A DNA stretch of 53,327 nucleotides from Clostridia bacterium (GTDB lineage: Bacteria; Bacillota; Clostridia; Oscillospirales; CAG-382): NCBI GenBank assembly GCA_017563195.1, contig JAFXDO010000037.1:1-53327 (forward strand). Reading direction: 5' to 3'. Under the pieces are notes generated by a model. It was not told the DNA's origin. It did not search any database and saw only the letters and a list, made by a program, of their open reading frames with translations. Made by a program: the position numbers and the translations under genes. This document shows, piece after piece, positions 1,726 through 5,971 of this stretch. Numbering within the stretch: the first letter of the stretch is position 1; every line of letters begins with the position of its first letter.

Positions 1726-1761
1726 CAAACAACAAAAGAGGACCACTCAAATCCCTTCGAT

Positions 1762-1899
1762 TCAAAACAAAAAGCCGCACTTCGTACGGTTCTTTCTTTT
1801 GGAGCTGGTGGAGGGATTTTTTGTTTTAGAAAACTCCTCGTAAAACAATACGACCTGTGTTGCAAAATCAAGAGATTTATCGAGCAAAGGAATGTTCAT
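1762..1899 (-). pseudogene. Truncated four-helix-bundle (23S rRNA IVS-protein/Avd-like) gene fragment
   Basis: Hand translation MNIPLLDKSLDFATQVVLFYEEFSKTK, then runs into the duplicated tRNA 3' end. GAGGTG RBS. N-terminus resembles the L.DKS..FA.. start of four-helix-bundle proteins. Confidence 0.5.
1797..1819 (-). repeat. Duplicated tRNA-Thr 3' end (att-like direct repeat)
   Basis: ttttggagctggtggagggattt occurs at 1797-1819 and again at 2100-2122 (tRNA 3' end). Confidence 0.85.
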
Positions 1900-1940
1900 T
1901 CATCATCACCTCTGAATGCATTATACCATATTGTACGACT

Positions 1941-2102
1941 TAATTCAATGCTTTGCGAAGCAAAGCTACCTTTTCTTTTATCTCTTCTCTCTTATCTTTT
2001 CTCTGGAAACGACAATTTGAGAGAAGAGAGAAGAATGAAAAGAGAAAAGTGAAAAGAACAAAAAGAAACGACAATCTTCTGTCGAAAATTGTCGTTTCTT
2101 TT
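1941..2102 (-). mobile_element. 162-bp tRNA-3'-associated structured element, copy 1
   Basis: Starts right after the tRNA-Thr CCA. Ungapped match to 3521-3682 with 10 mismatches in 162 nt by manual alignment. Confidence 0.75.
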
Positions 2103-2177
2103 TGGAGCTGGTGGAGGGATTTGAACCCTCGGCCTATTGATTACGAATCAATTGCGCTACCCCTGCGCCACACCAGC
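2103..2177 (-). tRNA. tRNA-Thr(CGT)
   Basis: Cloverleaf GCTGGTG...CACCAGC-T-CCA, anticodon arm ATTGA-TTCGTAA-TCAAT, GGTTCAAATCC T-arm. Confidence 0.95.
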
Positions 2178-2207
2178 ATAGCACCCACATCTGCAGGCGC
2201 AAAATGG

Positions 2208-2236
2208 ATTATAACATTTTTTTGAAGGCTTGTCAA
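2208..2236 (-). promoter_or_regulatory. Consensus sigma-A promoter of tRNA-Thr
   Basis: TTGACA-17 bp-TATAAT with TG extension. Confidence 0.85.
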
Positions 2237-2281
2237 TACAATTTTCGGATTATTCGGGCTTTCATTCCCAAAAGCAGAGGA

Positions 2282-3301
2282 TCAGACGAAGTGCTTACAT
2301 CTTACCGAGAAAAAGTCCTTTACGTTCTTATTTTTCATAGGAGCAAGTACGATTATTCCTATCGCAAACACGACCGTCACGCCCAACCCGCCCTCGGGTC
2401 CGAAGGCGCCTCCGCTCCAAAGCGTCGAGCCGTTGTGAACAGTTGTAAACAGCGTTTCGGAAACGTCTCCGCCGCTGACGCTGCAGCCGAAAATATTACC
2501 CTGCGCGAAGTTCCAAACAGAATGTATCGCACATATCCCCCAGATGCTTCCTCTGCGAAGATAAAACAACGTAGCGAAAACGCCGAAGAGGAAGAGATTA
2601 AAAACTGCGAGCGGAGTTATGCCGGGATTTGCGAAGTGAAGCCAAGCAAAAACACCCGAATTAAGCAACAACGCTATCAATACACCTTGGTTCGCCGCAA
2701 CGGTCGTAAACAAAAAGCCTCGCAACATTATCTCCTCGCTTGCGCCCTGTATTATATATGCAAGGAAGAAGATCAAAATGCTTTCATACGACACGCCTGC
2801 ATTAAAGCCCCCGAAGGAAATATCTCCGCTCAAAATAGCACATCCGTACGCGAAGGAAAACATCAAGACACCGATGAGAAGCCCGACAAGGTACTCTCTA
2901 AGCATTCCCTTCTTAGCAAGCCCTACTGTGAAAAGGCGCCGCTTTTCGACTATAACGCAATATGCAACCACCGCAATGATGACAGCAACTGTCGAAAACA
3001 GGTTGACATAATTCACCCAAATCGGTGCATCTGCGTAAAATCTGGTAAGTGCCTCGTCGAGAGTCTTGGACATCGTTTCGTTATCGACGTCGCTTTGAGA
3101 CATAAGCGCGACCACCTCGGGATCTTCGGATACGGCGGCATAGGTCGGAATGGCTATGATAAAATTCGAACCGAGAGCACCAACCATATAGACGACGAGG
3201 CATATCAAAGCAATCAAAATCAGACTGCGTTTTTTTGTAGTCGCAGCCGTTTCATCTATTGCAGAATTTGTACGAAAGAAGCGAAGCATCAAGCAATTCA
3301 T
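2282..3301 (-). CDS. CPBP family (Abi/CAAX) intramembrane metalloprotease
   Basis: EEIMLRG, FAWLH and HSVWN motifs, multiple TM segments, GGAFGPEG tail. Confidence 0.9.
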   Translation of the reverse strand: MNCLMLRFFRTNSAIDETAATTKKRSLILIALICLVVYMVGALGSNFIIAIPTYAAVSEDPEVVALMSQSDVDNETMSKTLDEALTRFYADAPIWVNYVNLFSTVAVIIAVVAYCVIVEKRRLFTVGLAKKGMLREYLVGLLIGVLMFSFAYGCAILSGDISFGGFNAGVSYESILIFFLAYIIQGASEEIMLRGFLFTTVAANQGVLIALLLNSGVFAWLHFANPGITPLAVFNLFLFGVFATLFYLRRGSIWGICAIHSVWNFAQGNIFGCSVSGGDVSETLFTTVHNGSTLWSGGAFGPEGGLGVTVVFAIGIIVLAPMKNKNVKDFFSVRCKHFV

Positions 3302-3374
3302 CCTTTAGAGTTTCTTGGTATATTTTATCACAATATATTTTATTAGTCAACACGAACTCTTGATGAAAAAGTAC

Positions 3375-3403
3375 TTGCAAAATGAAAAACTATGTGATAT
3401 AAT
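3375..3403 (+). promoter_or_regulatory. Sigma-A promoter of tRNA-Leu
   Basis: TTGCAA-17 bp-TATAAT with TG extension. Confidence 0.8.
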
Positions 3404-3433
3404 ACACCTTGCGCGATGAAGGCGCAAGCAATT

Positions 3434-3520
3434 GCCGGAATGATGGAATTGGCAGACGTGCTGGACTCAAAATCCAGTGGTAGCGATACCGTGCGGGTTC
3501 GACCCCCGCTTCCGGCACCA
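3434..3520 (+). tRNA. tRNA-Leu(CAA)
   Basis: GCCGGAA...TTCCGGC-A-CCA acceptor, anticodon arm CTGGA-CTCAAAA-TCCAG, long variable arm, GGTTCGACCCC T-arm. Confidence 0.95.
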
Positions 3521-3682
3521 AAAAGAAACGACAATTTTCGACAGAAGATTGTCGTTTCTTTTTGTTCTTTTCACTTTTATCTTTTCGTTCTTCTCTTTTC
3601 TCACAAATTGTCGTTTCCAGAGAAAAGATAAGAGAGAAAAGTGAAGAGAAAAGGTAGCTTTGCTCCGCAAAGCGTTGAATTA
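3521..3682 (+). mobile_element. 162-bp tRNA-3'-associated structured element, copy 2
   Basis: Starts right after the tRNA-Leu CCA. Terminator hairpin, 7-nt periodic pyrimidine and purine arms, gctttgc-tcc-gcaaagc hairpin, terminal TTGAAT. Confidence 0.75.
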
Positions 3683-3724
3683 TATAATAATTTGTGATAC
3701 AATTAACATAAAGAGGTGATTTCT

Positions 3725-4210
3725 ATGGTAAATAGCAACTTCAAACATATTGACCCAGATGAATTTCATGACAAAGAACTTATTTTTCACGATTGCGTAG
3801 CGGATCATGTTTCATGCGTAGATGGTATACTCCGCTTCCATTTTCCGGACGGTTTTTGGGTTACTCCTAACCATAAAGAAAGTCACTGTGATAAAGTAGT
3901 ACGGACAAATGCATCAGCTGTTGTTTTTTCTCTCAAAAACATTAATAATGCCTATGTTCGTGTGTTCACTCGGAATATTTTCAAGAAAACATATACAGAT
4001 GTTTGGGAAATAAATAAGCTTGTTTCCACAATAAACAACGGAGAATGTTCGATAGAATTTATTTATCAGTACAGAACCTATTTCGAGCAGATGTGGCATT
4101 GTGTAATTCATTCCAAGAAAAAGCCGTATTATAGGGAATGCCAACTGCACTTGCCGGAAACAGAAGCAACTTTCTTTTGGAATGATCTTCGTCCGGATCG
4201 TGAATGGTAG
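3725..4210 (+). CDS. Hypothetical protein (AT-rich accessory gene)
   Basis: ORF with AGAGGTGA RBS before the ATG at 3725. No family recognised. Confidence 0.75.
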   Translation: MVNSNFKHIDPDEFHDKELIFHDCVADHVSCVDGILRFHFPDGFWVTPNHKESHCDKVVRTNASAVVFSLKNINNAYVRVFTRNIFKKTYTDVWEINKLVSTINNGECSIEFIYQYRTYFEQMWHCVIHSKKKPYYRECQLHLPETEATFFWNDLRPDREW

Positions 4211-4331
4211 TCTGCACTACTTTTAGGCTTTTTTACCTGCCCGACGGGGTTCGGAAAACCGCAAGTTTATGCGGAATGGGCGGTTATAAGTGATATATAG
4301 AAACTGTCAAATGATTTGGTAGGAGAGCGGT

Positions 4332-4802: not shown

Positions 4803-4827
4803 AAAAGACGAGCAACGCTCGTCTTTT
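4803..4827. terminator. Bidirectional terminator
   Basis: aaaagacgagc-aac-gctcgtctttt between convergent genes. Confidence 0.8.
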
Positions 4828-5971
4828 ATTTATATTCCTTCGCTTTTTCAAGCAGCTCTTCCCTGCTATTATTGATTTCCTCATTAATGACAGCGCGCAG
4901 GAGCGACGCAAGTACGGCCCCGAGCTGCTTGGGTGCAAGACCCAATGCGAGCAGATCGTTACCCTTTATCGCAAGGTCTGATATAAACAAAGGCTCGTTT
5001 GACGATAAGACGCGCGATGAATTGTATTCCTCATCCTCTCCGTAAACCGCCTTGCGATAAGAGACGACGATTTCGGCATCATCCCGTCCGAGCGATGAGA
5101 TATACAGCTTCAGCTCGGGTAAAGACGGGGGGATCGGAGTCGAAACGGAAAGCAATCTGCAGATATGCTTTGTACGATTATCGGCACGCAAGGCAGAAAG
5201 CGTCGCCTCAATGCCTTCACCGCATAGACAATACAAACGCATCGCCGCATCGCCCGGACAACGCGAAACCGACTTGAAGTCGCCGTTTGCGGGAATTATT
5301 GCTCTGATCGCGTCGATATATTCGTCGATAACGTATTGACAGTTCTTGCCGAGGAGAAGCTTATTTAGCTCGGTATAGATACGCTCACCCGAAACAGACT
5401 TGACCGTATGCGCAAGTGTATTTATTGCTTTTGCGGTTTCTGCTTCTATTTGAAATCCGAGAGTGGACGAAAAGCGGAGCGCGCGAAGAATTCGCAACGC
5501 ATCCTCGGAAAAACGCTTGTAGGGGTCACCGACGGCTCGTATAACACGTTTTTCTATATCTTCCCTGCCGCCGTGCGGATCGACGATACCGACGGACGGT
5601 GAATAGGCAATTGCGTTAACGGTAAAGTCGCGTCTCGCGAGATCTCGATAAACCTCGCGCACAAACGTCACCGAATCGGGGTGGCGCGAATCGCTGTAGC
5701 CCGACTCGACGCGAAAGGTAGTCACTTCAAAAGGCTGTCCGTCGACCATAACCGTCACGGTCCCGTGCTTGATGCCGGTTTCCAAAACACGCAAGTCCGA
5801 AAACACCGACTTTGTCTCCTCGGGAAGCGAAGAGGTAGTTATATCAAAATCATTGACTTCCCTACCCATCAGCATATCTCTTACGCATCCGCCGACGACG
5901 TACGCCTCGAAGCCTGCAGTCTCGAGTCGTTTTATGATAAATTCTGCATTTTCGGGTAAATCAAGACGCAT
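4826..5971 (-). CDS. cca: CCA tRNA nucleotidyltransferase (class II)
   Basis: VGGCVRD, DFDI, RRDFTVNAIA, FSEDALRILRALRF motifs. Confidence 0.88.
   Translation of the reverse strand: MRLDLPENAEFIIKRLETAGFEAYVVGGCVRDMLMGREVNDFDITTSSLPEETKSVFSDLRVLETGIKHGTVTVMVDGQPFEVTTFRVESGYSDSRHPDSVTFVREVYRDLARRDFTVNAIAYSPSVGIVDPHGGREDIEKRVIRAVGDPYKRFSEDALRILRALRFSSTLGFQIEAETAKAINTLAHTVKSVSGERIYTELNKLLLGKNCQYVIDEYIDAIRAIIPANGDFKSVSRCPGDAAMRLYCLCGEGIEATLSALRADNRTKHICRLLSVSTPIPPSLPELKLYISSLGRDDAEIVVSYRKAVYGEDEEYNSSRVLSSNEPLFISDLAIKGNDLLALGLAPKQLGAVLASLLRAVINEEINNSREELLEKAKEYK

What the first reader, a model, noticed from the sequence alone, without database searches (positions are those of the whole stretch)
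1941..3682. The same 162-bp structured element is docked on the CCA ends of two unrelated tRNAs
Seen: 1941-2102 (minus) and 3521-3682 (plus) align without gaps with 10 mismatches in 162 nt. Each begins at the base after the CCA of a different tRNA (Thr-CGT, Leu-CAA), whose 3' sequences are otherwise dissimilar. Architecture: a terminator hairpin built from GAAACGACAAT/ATTGTCGTTTC; five 7-nt pyrimidine units; a third ATTGTCGTTTC copy in the loop; five 7-nt purine units able to pair with the pyrimidine arm; a GCTTTGC-nnn-GCAAAGC hairpin; and TTGAAT. Inference: a non-autonomous element that targets tRNA 3' ends by position or structure rather than by a long att sequence. The third 11-mer allows an alternative pairing that would disrupt the terminator, and the three 11-mers could also be recombinase binding sites. 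I know of no named element with this layout.
Basis: partly seen in the sequence, partly recalled or inferred. Interest (0 to 1): 0.85.

Follow-up and report, generated by a model that had tools for sequence, protein, structure and literature searches.

The report
Mobile gene cassette docked on tRNA ends
The 162-base repeat is the head of a small, widely spread gene cassette of gut Clostridia that sits exactly after the CCA end of many different tRNA genes and of tmRNA genes; it brings its own terminator and promoter, and no enzyme that could move it was found nearby.

Summary
Window 1941-2102(-) and 3521-3682(+) match at 152 of 162 bases without gaps, and each starts at the base after a tRNA's CCA.

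It is not a local duplication. The same element ("E") turns up in 19 of 41 related genomes and in at least 119 stretches of gut Clostridia MAGs. Of 77 copies that could be judged, 59 abut an ARAGORN-called tRNA, covering 24 anticodon species. Three more abut tmRNA.

E consists of:
- a terminator hairpin (H1);
- a pyrimidine/purine heptamer hairpin (H2);
- a small hairpin (H3);
- the -35 box of an outward promoter.

That promoter usually drives a PF05635 four-helix-bundle (Avd-like) gene (50 of 122 copies).

The H2 loop is a perfect 10-14 nt complement of the H1 5' arm in eight unrelated H1 sequence types.

E is far better conserved than its flanks, is AT-rich, and carries variable cargo. No integrase, Y1/Y2 transposase or reverse transcriptase travels with it. 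I read it as the docking head of a non-autonomous mobile cassette. How it moves is unknown.

The parts
2103..2177 (-). tRNA-Thr(cgt). Copy A starts at the base after its CCA.
   Evidence: ARAGORN; Rfam tRNA 73 bits
1941..2102 (-). Element E, copy A (162 nt)
   Evidence: Alignment; fold; BLAST
2059..2104 (-). H1 of copy A: a 20-bp stem with an A tract and a T tract. It is terminator-like, and its foot includes the CA of the CCA.
1969..2057 (-). H2 of copy A: an arm of pyrimidine heptamers, the loop, then an arm of purine heptamers
   Evidence: Fold. The register is not conserved across copies.
2006..2018 (-). Loop motif AAATTGTCGTTTC of copy A, a perfect complement of the H1 5' arm
1950..1966 (-). 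H3 of copy A (7 bp, 3-nt loop). On the opposite strand it is terminator-like.
1920..1948 (-). Promoter-like site: TTGAAT, 17 nt, TG, TATAAT
   Evidence: 10 of 12 positions match
1819..1899 (-). 5' fragment (about 27 codons) of the PF05635 four-helix-bundle gene, cut off at an A run
   Evidence: same reading frame as the full gene after the C18 copy. Pfam on a full homologue.
1800..1819 (-). Direct repeat of the last 20 nt of tRNA-Thr (mid T-loop to CCA)
   Evidence: the only other occurrence in the genome
1748..1789 (-). Terminator hairpin (1775-1789) followed by an inverted copy of the T-loop and T-stem (1748-1757). This is the 5' piece of a 'Y' module.
3434..3520 (+). tRNA-Leu(caa). Copy B starts at the base after its CCA.
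3521..3682 (+). Element E, copy B (162 nt)
3519..3564 (+). H1 of copy B
3566..3654 (+). H2 of copy B
3605..3617 (+). Loop motif of copy B
3657..3673 (+). H3 of copy B
3675..3703 (+). Promoter-like site: TTGAAT, 17 nt, TG, TACAAT
   Evidence: 9 of 12 positions match
3725..4210 (+). Cargo gene of copy B: 161 aa, no Pfam family, 37% GC against 51% for the genome. It was not found in the 60 other genomes of the genus.

Best explanation
E is the tRNA-proximal head of a small, non-autonomous gene cassette that spreads horizontally. The cassette is inserted exactly between the CCA end of a tRNA or tmRNA gene and whatever followed it.

What each part does:
- H1 takes over as the intrinsic terminator of the tRNA (inferred from its form).
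- H3 together with the T-rich complement of the purine arm looks like a terminator for transcription coming from the other side (inferred).
- TTGAAT, a 17-nt spacer and TGnTAtAAT form the cassette's own promoter (consensus only). It drives the payload, which is most often a PF05635 four-helix-bundle (Avd-like) gene, followed by variable small genes.

The H2 loop carries a strictly Watson-Crick complement of the element's own first 10-15 bases. In three sequence types the complement also covers the tRNA's CCA. My inference is that this pairing, formed in single-stranded DNA or in read-through RNA, marks or presents the left junction to an enzyme supplied in trans.

Some cassettes end in a conserved right end: a hairpin, 8 nt, then CCA or ACA. 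This has the same layout as a tRNA's T-arm, 8 nt, CCA. The most likely way of moving is therefore cutting and joining guided by structure, right after a 'helix-N8-CCA', in the manner of HUH single-strand transposons. The enzyme was not identified.

Shown: the copies, the docking at CCA, the covariation, the gene content, the conservation and the composition. Inferred: the terminator, promoter and insulator roles, and the whole mechanism of movement.
For: Copies and docking
- G000 holds further copies: one after tRNA-Ser(gga) on C18, and a partial copy at the end of C57.
- 19 of 41 related genomes have matches. 18 of the first 30 loci start right after a tRNA.
- An interior 27-mer finds at least 119 stretches in named gut Clostridia, Oscillospiraceae and Acutalibacteraceae MAGs.
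- Of 83 motif hits, 77 could be judged. 59 abut a called tRNA of 24 anticodon species, and the CCA-to-motif distance is most often 87 nt. Three abut tmRNA. In one more the loop motif is duplicated. Seven follow the CCA of a tRNA 3' fragment.

Mobility
- E is 98% identical between G000 and G009. Their tRNA-Thr genes are 81% identical, and the neighbouring protein gene does not align by blastn.
- The same tRNA is occupied differently in related genomes. tRNA-Ser(gga) is empty in G059, holds a Y module in G017, and holds E in G000 and G026.
- GC is 34-37% for the 4HB gene and the cargo, against 51% for the genome.
- The cargo gene of copy B is in 0 of 60 other genus genomes.
- In two gut DNA metagenomes the E bins reach a summed depth of 452-702, against 5.3-5.8 for the unique flank.

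Structure
- Fold z-scores of -8.1 and -8.6.
- In H1, 1324 of 1328 non-gap cells are Watson-Crick or G.U across 95 copies.
- Loop against H1 5' arm: cognate matches of 10-14 nt, non-cognate at most 9 nt over 56 pairs. Only 1 of 20000 permutations reaches the observed sum. A ninth type turned up in another family (L190).
- Terminator-like and promoter-like sites.

Payload
- A PF05635 gene lies directly downstream in 50 of 122 copies; the genes in second position vary.
- Class-wide, 7 of 30 sampled PF05635 genes lie about 195-290 nt downstream of a same-strand tRNA or tmRNA.

Right end
-.
Against: - No mobilising enzyme was found. No recombinase, transposase or reverse transcriptase recurs within 3.5 kb downstream of 122 copies.
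- The Y1 transposases in 21 of 61 genus genomes belong to ordinary IS200 copies with other ends and another target.
- Y2_Tnp was found in 0 of 61 genomes, but the control rang nowhere, so this negative is weak.
- Reverse transcriptase is in 16 of 61 genomes, and in neither of the E-rich, 97-98% complete genomes G009 and G011.
- The right-end motif follows only 15 of 122 copies, so most copies have no defined right boundary.
- I have no clean empty-versus-filled pair with both flanks for E itself. The clean pair I found is for the neighbouring Y module.
- H2 has no conserved pairing register, which weakens any reading of it as a precise RNA or DNA structure.
- No inverted or excised forms were seen.
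- The RNA data are contigs only and settle nothing.
- Six of the 77 copies do not follow a tRNA or a tRNA fragment.
Confidence: 0.55

Rival explanations
1. E is the leftover arm (attL side) of ordinary genomic islands that a tyrosine integrase placed in the T-loop of tRNA genes. The islands were later deleted down to a few hundred bases.
For: - Direct repeats of the tRNA's last 20-21 nt, starting in the T-loop, bound the insert at window 1800-1819 and in L003 and L020.
- Insertions stack at one tRNA.
- From recall, not looked up here: T-loop-to-CCA identity blocks are typical of integrase sites in tRNA genes (Williams 2002).
Against: - Only 8 of 70 judged E copies have a repeat of 12 nt or more in the locus, and in 3 of those E lies after the repeat.
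- The repeats belong to a separate module (Y) that also occurs without E.
- One E sequence at 89-98% identity follows at least 24 tRNA species and tmRNA.
- No integrase gene recurs within 3.5 kb. G000 has a single PF00589 gene, on another contig.
Confidence: 0.15
2. E is copied through RNA. A cassette transcript is reverse-transcribed with the help of the Avd-like protein and joined to tRNA CCA ends by template switching or target priming.
For: - The junction lies exactly at the CCA of any tRNA and of tmRNA.
- The right end imitates a tRNA 3' end.
- The payload is an Avd relative.
- From recall: the Neurospora Mauriceville retroplasmid joins tRNA-CCA ends to its own sequence.
Against: - No reverse transcriptase was found in G000 (73% complete), G009 (97%) or G011 (98%). 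It is present in only 16 of 61 genus genomes.
- E lies upstream of the cassette's own promoter, so the transcript would have to read through H1.
- The truncated copies keep the head and lose the tail. This is the opposite of what abortive reverse transcription from the 3' end would leave.
Confidence: 0.1
3. E is a host-kept regulatory or insulator region, or a small RNA gene. Selection conserves it, and it spreads only by recombination between tRNA flanks.
For: - Strong predicted structure.
- Terminator-like sites facing both directions plus a promoter-like site.
- The neighbouring module type is a listed RNA motif, Gut-1.
Against: - There is no shared sequence in the tRNAs that could guide recombination to the exact CCA.
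- AT-rich composition and accessory cargo.
- Near-identity across species whose genes barely align.
- H2's pairing register is not conserved.
- No Rfam family matches E.
Confidence: 0.1
4. The two copies in the window come from a local inverted duplication or a misassembly.
For: They lie 1.4 kb apart in inverted orientation.
Against: - There are copies on other contigs and in many other genomes and records.
- G009 has E at tRNA-Leu only; there the tRNA-Thr has its own terminator.
Confidence: 0.01

Closest known systems
Genomic islands and prophages integrated in tRNA or tmRNA genes by tyrosine integrases
   Same: The target is the 3' end of tRNA and tmRNA genes and the tRNA stays intact. The cargo is AT-rich and accessory. 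Insertions stack. Some neighbouring modules carry 20-21 nt repeats of the tRNA 3' end.
   Different: No integrase travels with E. One near-identical sequence follows at least 24 tRNA species. The junction is at the CCA itself. Most copies have no repeat (8 of 70). The size is 0.16-1.3 kb.
IS200/IS605-type single-strand transposons and their small derivatives (PATEs, REP/REPIN with RAYT); what I say about these families is recalled, plus the abstracts listed
   Same: No terminal inverted repeats and no target duplication. Hairpins lie next to both ends. Insertion is just 3' of a short fixed motif. Where a right end is present, it finishes with that same motif a few bases after a hairpin.
   Different: The Y1 transposases of this genus belong to ordinary IS200 copies with unrelated ends that insert after TTTTGATT. 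E-rich genomes such as G018 and G002 have none. The internal complement is 10-14 nt long, where IS608 uses 4-nt guides (recalled).
Intervening sequences of 23S rRNA that encode a PF05635 protein
   Same: The payload family is the same, and the host is again a stable-RNA gene. This rests and on passages of PMC10053308 read.
   Different: E lies after the tRNA, not inside the RNA. It has its own terminator and promoter. No flanking stem that would be cut out of a precursor was seen.
Gut-1 RNA motif (Rfam RF01706; Weinberg et al. 2010, PMC2864571, passages read)
   Same: In G000 and in other Clostridia, Gut-1 arrays hold the same place as E. They come right after the CCA and a long terminator hairpin, and they often lie upstream of a promoter and a PF05635 gene.
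   Different: E does not match the Gut-1 model. Gut-1 is an array of short GC hairpins, not a pyrimidine/purine hairpin, and I saw no loop complementary to its terminator.
Intergenic repeats that carry terminators or promoters, and that IS3-family elements target (Correia elements; BIME with IS1397) - recalled
   Same: E is a repeated intergenic palindromic unit with terminator-like and promoter-like parts. An IS3-family element abuts its purine arm in 9 loci.
   Different: Those repeats are scattered between genes and are not tied to tRNA ends.

Membership tests
Any Rfam 15 family | Match to a curated covariance model at its gathering score | tested here: not met
   over E there are only sub-threshold miRNA and Phe_leader noise matches (25-33 bits against gathering scores of 55-104).
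MITE | Terminal inverted repeats and a target-site duplication | tested here: not met
   The ends AAAAGAAACG... and ...CATTGAATTA are not inverted repeats. No duplication flanks the copies.
IS200/IS605-derived element (PATE or REP type) | Insertion 3' of a fixed short motif, with neither TIR nor TSD | tested here: met
   Copies start after CCA: 59+3+1 of 77 after a complete tRNA or tmRNA, and 7 more after the CCA of a fragment.
IS200/IS605-derived element (PATE or REP type) | A cognate Y1 transposase whose own ends resemble the element | tested here: not met
   Y1 genes are in 21 of 61 genus genomes. The six I inspected are plain IS200 copies with unrelated hairpin ends and a TTTTGATT target.
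IS91 / rolling-circle transposon | A Y2 transposase in the genomes that carry the element | tested here: inconclusive
   PF04986 was found in 0 of 61 genomes, but the control rang in none of 14 genomes.
tRNA-integrating island (tyrosine integrase) | Direct repeat of the tRNA 3' segment at the far end | tested here: not met
   8 of 70 copies have one. It is present at window copy A and absent for copy B.
tRNA-integrating island (tyrosine integrase) | Integrase gene inside the island | tested here: not met
   No recombinase appears among the recurrent genes within 3.5 kb. G000 has one PF00589 gene, on contig C37.
23S rRNA intervening sequence | Lies inside a 23S rRNA helix and carries a PF05635 ORF | tested here: not met
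   The ORF family matches, but the site is after a tRNA or tmRNA.
Intrinsic terminator (H1) | GC-containing stem followed by a T run | tested here: met
   20 pairs followed by TTTTT in both copies. Actual termination was not measured.
Sigma-70-type promoter | -35 and -10 hexamers 16-18 nt apart | tested here: met
   10 of 12 and 9 of 12 positions match, both with TG upstream of the -10. The site is conserved ahead of the payload in many copies. No transcription start was measured.
Invertible DNA switch | Both orientations of the segment between the inverted repeats are found | tested here: not met
   106 copies are in the normal order and none has the H1-to-loop segment inverted. This was checked in assemblies only.

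The most novel reading that the evidence does not exclude
E, the Gut-1 arrays and the Y modules are members of one undescribed class of integrase-less 'CCA-to-CCA' mobile modules. Each starts with an A-tract hairpin right after a CCA and ends in a helix, 8 nt and CCA. They recognise the folded 3' end of tRNA and tmRNA genes rather than a sequence. The internal complement of their own junction acts as a guide. The PF05635 (Avd-like) protein is their dedicated factor, which would also explain why this protein family turns up inside 23S rRNA intervening sequences.
Probability: 0.25. Interest if true: 0.9.

Novelty: new variant of a known kind. Interest (0 to 1): 0.72.

Why it matters
- It would give the orphan Gut-1 RNA motif a genomic setting.
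- It would link PF05635 proteins, known only from rRNA intervening sequences and as relatives of Avd, to a second kind of stable-RNA gene.
- It would point to a way of placing genes at the exact 3' end of almost any tRNA gene without a resident integrase.
- These modules fill many tRNA flanks in abundant gut Clostridia and break assemblies there (C57 ends inside a copy). They therefore also matter for MAG quality, and for anyone who uses tRNA flanks to find islands.

Tried and rejected
Partner enzymes
- Y1 transposase: rejected.
- Y2 transposase: none found, weak negative.
- Reverse transcriptase: no fit with the genomes that hold E.
- Tyrosine recombinase next to E: none.

Vehicles
- No BLAST match in 50,697 phage records or 72,556 plasmid records. 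The low-complexity filter may mask the arms.
- No exact 27-mer match in IMG/VR.

Defence role of the cargo
- No PADLOC family for 8 cargo proteins.

Invertible switch between the H1 arm and the loop
- No inverted copy among 106. The first regex simply found the reverse strands.

Consensus fold of H2
- RNAalifold on 95 copies gave no fixed register.

RNA evidence
- Four runs were laid, and all are contigs. RNA contigs cover both tRNAs and 3721-4237. There is some cover in 1961-2134 and almost none in 3527-3700. This allows no conclusion on termination or read-through.
- A 60-base skip at 1965-2026 in two DNA runs has only 21 letters on its shorter side, so I do not use it.

Empty site for E
- The pattern search found a terminator module that is itself repeated after several tRNA-Ser species. 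It gave a clean empty/filled pair only for the Y module.

Classical antiterminator reading of the loop motif
- Rejected on the order of parts.

Literature
- Searches found no description of E.
- I read passages only of PMC2864571 and PMC10053308.
They may mention tRNA neighbours.
- Williams 2002, IS608, IS91/Helitron, IS1397/BIME, Correia and Mauriceville are recalled, not looked up.

Full report
**1. The observation**

The two stretches align without gaps, with 152 of 162 positions identical. ARAGORN places tRNA-Thr(cgt) at 2103-2177(-) and tRNA-Leu(caa) at 3434-3520(+), so each copy begins at the base after CCA; Rfam confirms both tRNAs.

As RNA, each copy folds into three hairpins. The energies are -66.2 and -64.4 kcal/mol, z = -8.6 and -8.1, and none of 200 shuffles folds as well.
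- H1 is a 20-21 bp stem built on GAAACGACAAT/ATTGTCGTTTC with an A tract before it and a T tract after it.
- H2 pairs a pyrimidine arm with a purine arm, both made of 7-nt units. Its 17-nt loop holds a third ATTGTCGTTTC.
- H3 is GCTTTGC-nnn-GCAAAGC.

A consensus scan calls H1 terminator-like in both copies. It also shows that the final TTGAAT is the -35 box of a promoter-like site: 17-nt spacer, TG, then TATAAT in copy A and TACAAT in copy B. On the opposite strand, H3 followed by the T-rich complement of the purine arm is terminator-like as well.

**2. Not a local duplication**

BLAST against the 76-contig genome (1.71 Mb, 73% complete) finds further copies. One lies right after tRNA-Ser(gga) on contig C18. 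A partial copy lies at the very end of contig C57.

A search of 41 related genomes finds matches in 19, among them 15 of 24 other genomes of the genus and 3 genomes of other families of the order. In 18 of the 30 loci returned, the element starts right after a tRNA of 14 different anticodon species. The remaining loci are cut by contig ends, are weak partial matches, or follow a tRNA fragment.

All the listed titles are gut or faecal MAGs labelled Clostridia, Oscillospiraceae, Acutalibacteraceae or Eubacteriales, apart from one labelled Thermotogae and one Anaerovoracaceae.

In the first 80 loci there are 83 motif hits, and 77 have room upstream to be judged:
- 59 have an ARAGORN tRNA ending 79-92 nt before the motif (most often 87), which means the element abuts it. 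These tRNAs cover 24 anticodon species.
- 3 abut a tmRNA gene, confirmed.
- 1 abuts tRNA-Leu but has a duplicated loop motif.
- 1 follows a tRNA-like sequence that ARAGORN does not call.
- 7 follow the CCA of a tRNA 3' fragment.
- 6 do not follow any such end; one of these still follows GGCCA.

**3. E moves between genomes**

Between G000 and G009 the element is 98% identical. Their tRNA-Thr genes are 81% identical, and the protein gene between the tRNAs does not align by blastn.

G009 has E after tRNA-Leu only, and its tRNA-Thr has a plain terminator. tRNA-Ser(gga) is followed directly by a terminator in G059, by a different module in G017, and by E in G000 and G026.

The payloads are AT-rich: 34.5% GC for the C18 four-helix-bundle gene and 37% for the gene after copy B, against 51% for the genome. 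The gene after copy B has no Pfam family and was not found in any of the 60 other genomes of the genus.

In two gut DNA metagenomes the summed contig depth over E is 452-702, against 5.3-5.8 over the unique flank. E is therefore present many times over in those communities.

**4. What the unit is**

The similarity continues past the 162 nt through the promoter and a ribosome-binding site. Directly downstream, 50 of 122 copies carry a gene of about 115 aa. It matches PF05635 (23S_rRNA_IVP) at 1.9e-24 and the uncharacterised PDB entry 2rld. Passages of PMC10053308 say that this family resembles Avd, the accessory protein of diversity-generating retroelements, and that some members lie in 23S rRNA intervening sequences.

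In window copy A only the first 27 or so codons remain (1819-1899). They are joined at an A run to a 20-nt repeat of the end of tRNA-Thr.

The gene in second position varies: an unknown 231-aa protein (10 loci), a 112-aa protein (9 loci), three clusters of GNAT acetyltransferases, and others.

Fifteen of the 122 copies are followed, 249-1278 nt after their start, by a conserved right end. It reads GAGTTCGAATTCATACGCAAAA...TTTTTyGTAGCCCATAGnCA, that is, a hairpin, 8 nt, then CCA or ACA. An A-tract terminator or the next module comes straight after it. A tRNA's T-arm, 8 nt and CCA have the same layout; I read this off the sequences and no tool tested it.

**5. The loop motif**

I took eight H1 types with unrelated sequences, one representative each. 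For each I measured the longest exact Watson-Crick complement of the H1 5' arm within the 105 nt after H1.
- Cognate pairs give 10-14 nt (mean 12.25).
- The 56 non-cognate pairs give at most 9 nt (mean 5.5).
- One of 20000 random pairings reaches the observed sum.

A ninth type was found in another family of the class (L190).

In at least five types the H1 3' arm pairs through a G.U wobble, while the loop copy is a perfect complement. Two types differ by one base in the 5' arm: the loop carries the compensating change and the 3' arm does not. In three types the complement runs across the junction into the tRNA's CCA (...TTTTTGG).

So the pairing of the loop with the element's first bases is under tighter constraint than the terminator stem itself. 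The loop lies after the T tract, so it cannot decide termination of the same transcript.

H1 itself is almost always paired: 1324 of 1328 non-gap cells across 95 copies. No common register is found for H2, whose arms are heptamer repeats that can slip against each other.

**6. How it may work**

The terminator, the reverse terminator and the promoter make sense for a cassette that parks behind a strongly transcribed gene. These roles are inferred from consensus only.

For movement, the evidence is as follows:
- insertion exactly 3' of CCA;
- no terminal inverted repeats and no duplication;
- hairpins at both ends;
- a right end that repeats 'helix, 8 nt, CCA';
- truncated copies that keep the head;
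- variable tails.

This recalls HUH single-strand transposons (recalled knowledge). I could not find the enzyme.
- The Y1 genes of the genus (21 of 61 genomes) are plain IS200 copies.
- Y2 was not found, though the control failed too.
- Reverse transcriptase is in 16 of 61 genomes and not in the E-rich, nearly complete G009 and G011.
- No recombinase recurs next to E.
- E is not in the phage, plasmid or IMG/VR collections searched.

I therefore give 0.55 to the overall reading, a mobile non-autonomous cassette head. I put much less on any particular enzyme.

**7. The integrase reading**

20-21 nt repeats of tRNA 3' ends that start in the T-loop do occur, and window 1800-1819 is one. They belong to a second module family, Y. 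A Y module consists of a terminator, an inverted copy of the T-loop and T-stem, a GC-rich core holding GTGTCGGGGACAC, and then the repeat. Y modules occur with or without E.

Only 8 of 70 E copies have such a repeat in their locus. For E I therefore keep this reading as a minor rival.

**8. Wider setting**

In G000 many tRNA 3' flanks carry E, Y or a third module type. That third type matches the Rfam Gut-1 motif at up to 90.9 bits. Gut-1 was described only as a putative non-coding RNA from human gut metagenomes (PMC2864571, passages).

In a sample of 150 genomes of the class, 48 have PF05635 genes. Of the 30 loci returned, 7 have a same-strand tRNA or tmRNA ending about 195-290 nt upstream, and 2 more have one at 516 and 1051 nt. 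The leaders are Gut-1-like or, in one case, E-like. This is a small sample taken from the best-scoring hits, so it is not a measured rate.

**9. Limits**

- The genome is a 73%-complete MAG.
- All RNA data are contigs.
- No experiment supports the terminator, the promoter or the pairing.
- The right boundary of most copies is unknown.

Noticed in passing
G000 C32 (L033), C40 (L032), C51 (L031); L003, L020, L005, L200; window 1748-1819: 'Y' modules of about 130-150 nt lie right after a tRNA's CCA. Each holds a terminator, TTTTGTTTTG, an inverted copy of that tRNA's T-loop and T-stem, a GC-rich core with GTGTCGGGGACAC, and then a direct repeat of the tRNA's own last 20-21 nt. They stand in tandem on C40. 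There is a clean empty/filled pair at tRNA-Ser(gga), G059 against G017. No Rfam family matches.
   Followed up: partly
G000 C18 10940-11256, C56, C59, C68, C32, C51 (L034, L037-L039, L033, L031): Arrays of short GC hairpins spaced by GTGAAAT or ATGATG follow a long terminator right after the CCA. They match Rfam Gut-1 (RF01706) at up to 90.9 bits. The array after tRNA-Glu(ctc) is followed by a promoter and a 27-codon fragment that looks like the start of a four-helix-bundle gene (by eye; PF05635 did not ring there). In other Clostridia, Gut-1-like arrays lie between a tRNA or tmRNA and a PF05635 gene.
   Followed up: partly
L004, L011, L013, L030, L045-L048, L067, L075, L084, L088, L091, L092, L096, L121, L126, L129, L150, L158; G000 C32:13657, C51:2519: A conserved 55-60 nt right-end motif, TTCGAATTCATACGCAAAA...TTTTTyGTAGCCCATAGnCA. 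It closes both E cassettes and Gut-1 modules and is followed at once by an A-tract hairpin.
   Followed up: partly
L007, L008, L028, L046, L068, L085, L097, L104, L151: An IS3-family insertion sequence of about 1.2 kb abuts the purine-rich arm of H2, or the complement of the pyrimidine arm, in nine loci from several genomes. It has orfA, a frameshift and a DDE orfB, and its end reads GAAAGTTGTATAGTAAAAGTGGACAC. It may prefer this repeat as a target.
   Followed up: partly
L070 / L005 and L097: Tandem E copies. In L097 the second copy starts directly after the TTGAAT of the first, so there the repeat unit is the 162-nt block itself.
   Followed up: no
G000 C41:1-604 (L036): Another PF05635 gene is preceded by a duplicated array of hairpins spaced by CATAAC/GTTATGA. 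The contig starts inside the array.
   Followed up: no
G000 C29:3990-4300 and L005/L070: A further module after tRNA-Pro(cgg), CACGGGACCAAGGG...GAGGTTCAAATCCT, ends in a copy of a tRNA-Pro-like T-arm and CCA.
   Followed up: no
G000 C57:31312-31362 and several loci: Contigs end inside E or its neighbouring modules, so these repeats break short-read assemblies at tRNA flanks.
   Followed up: no
window 4826-5971 (-): A CCA-adding enzyme / poly(A) polymerase family gene lies 1.1 kb from copy B. I take this to be coincidence.
   Followed up: no
L115: One copy has its loop motif duplicated in tandem (AAATTGTCGTTTCAAATTGTCGTTTCC).
   Followed up: no
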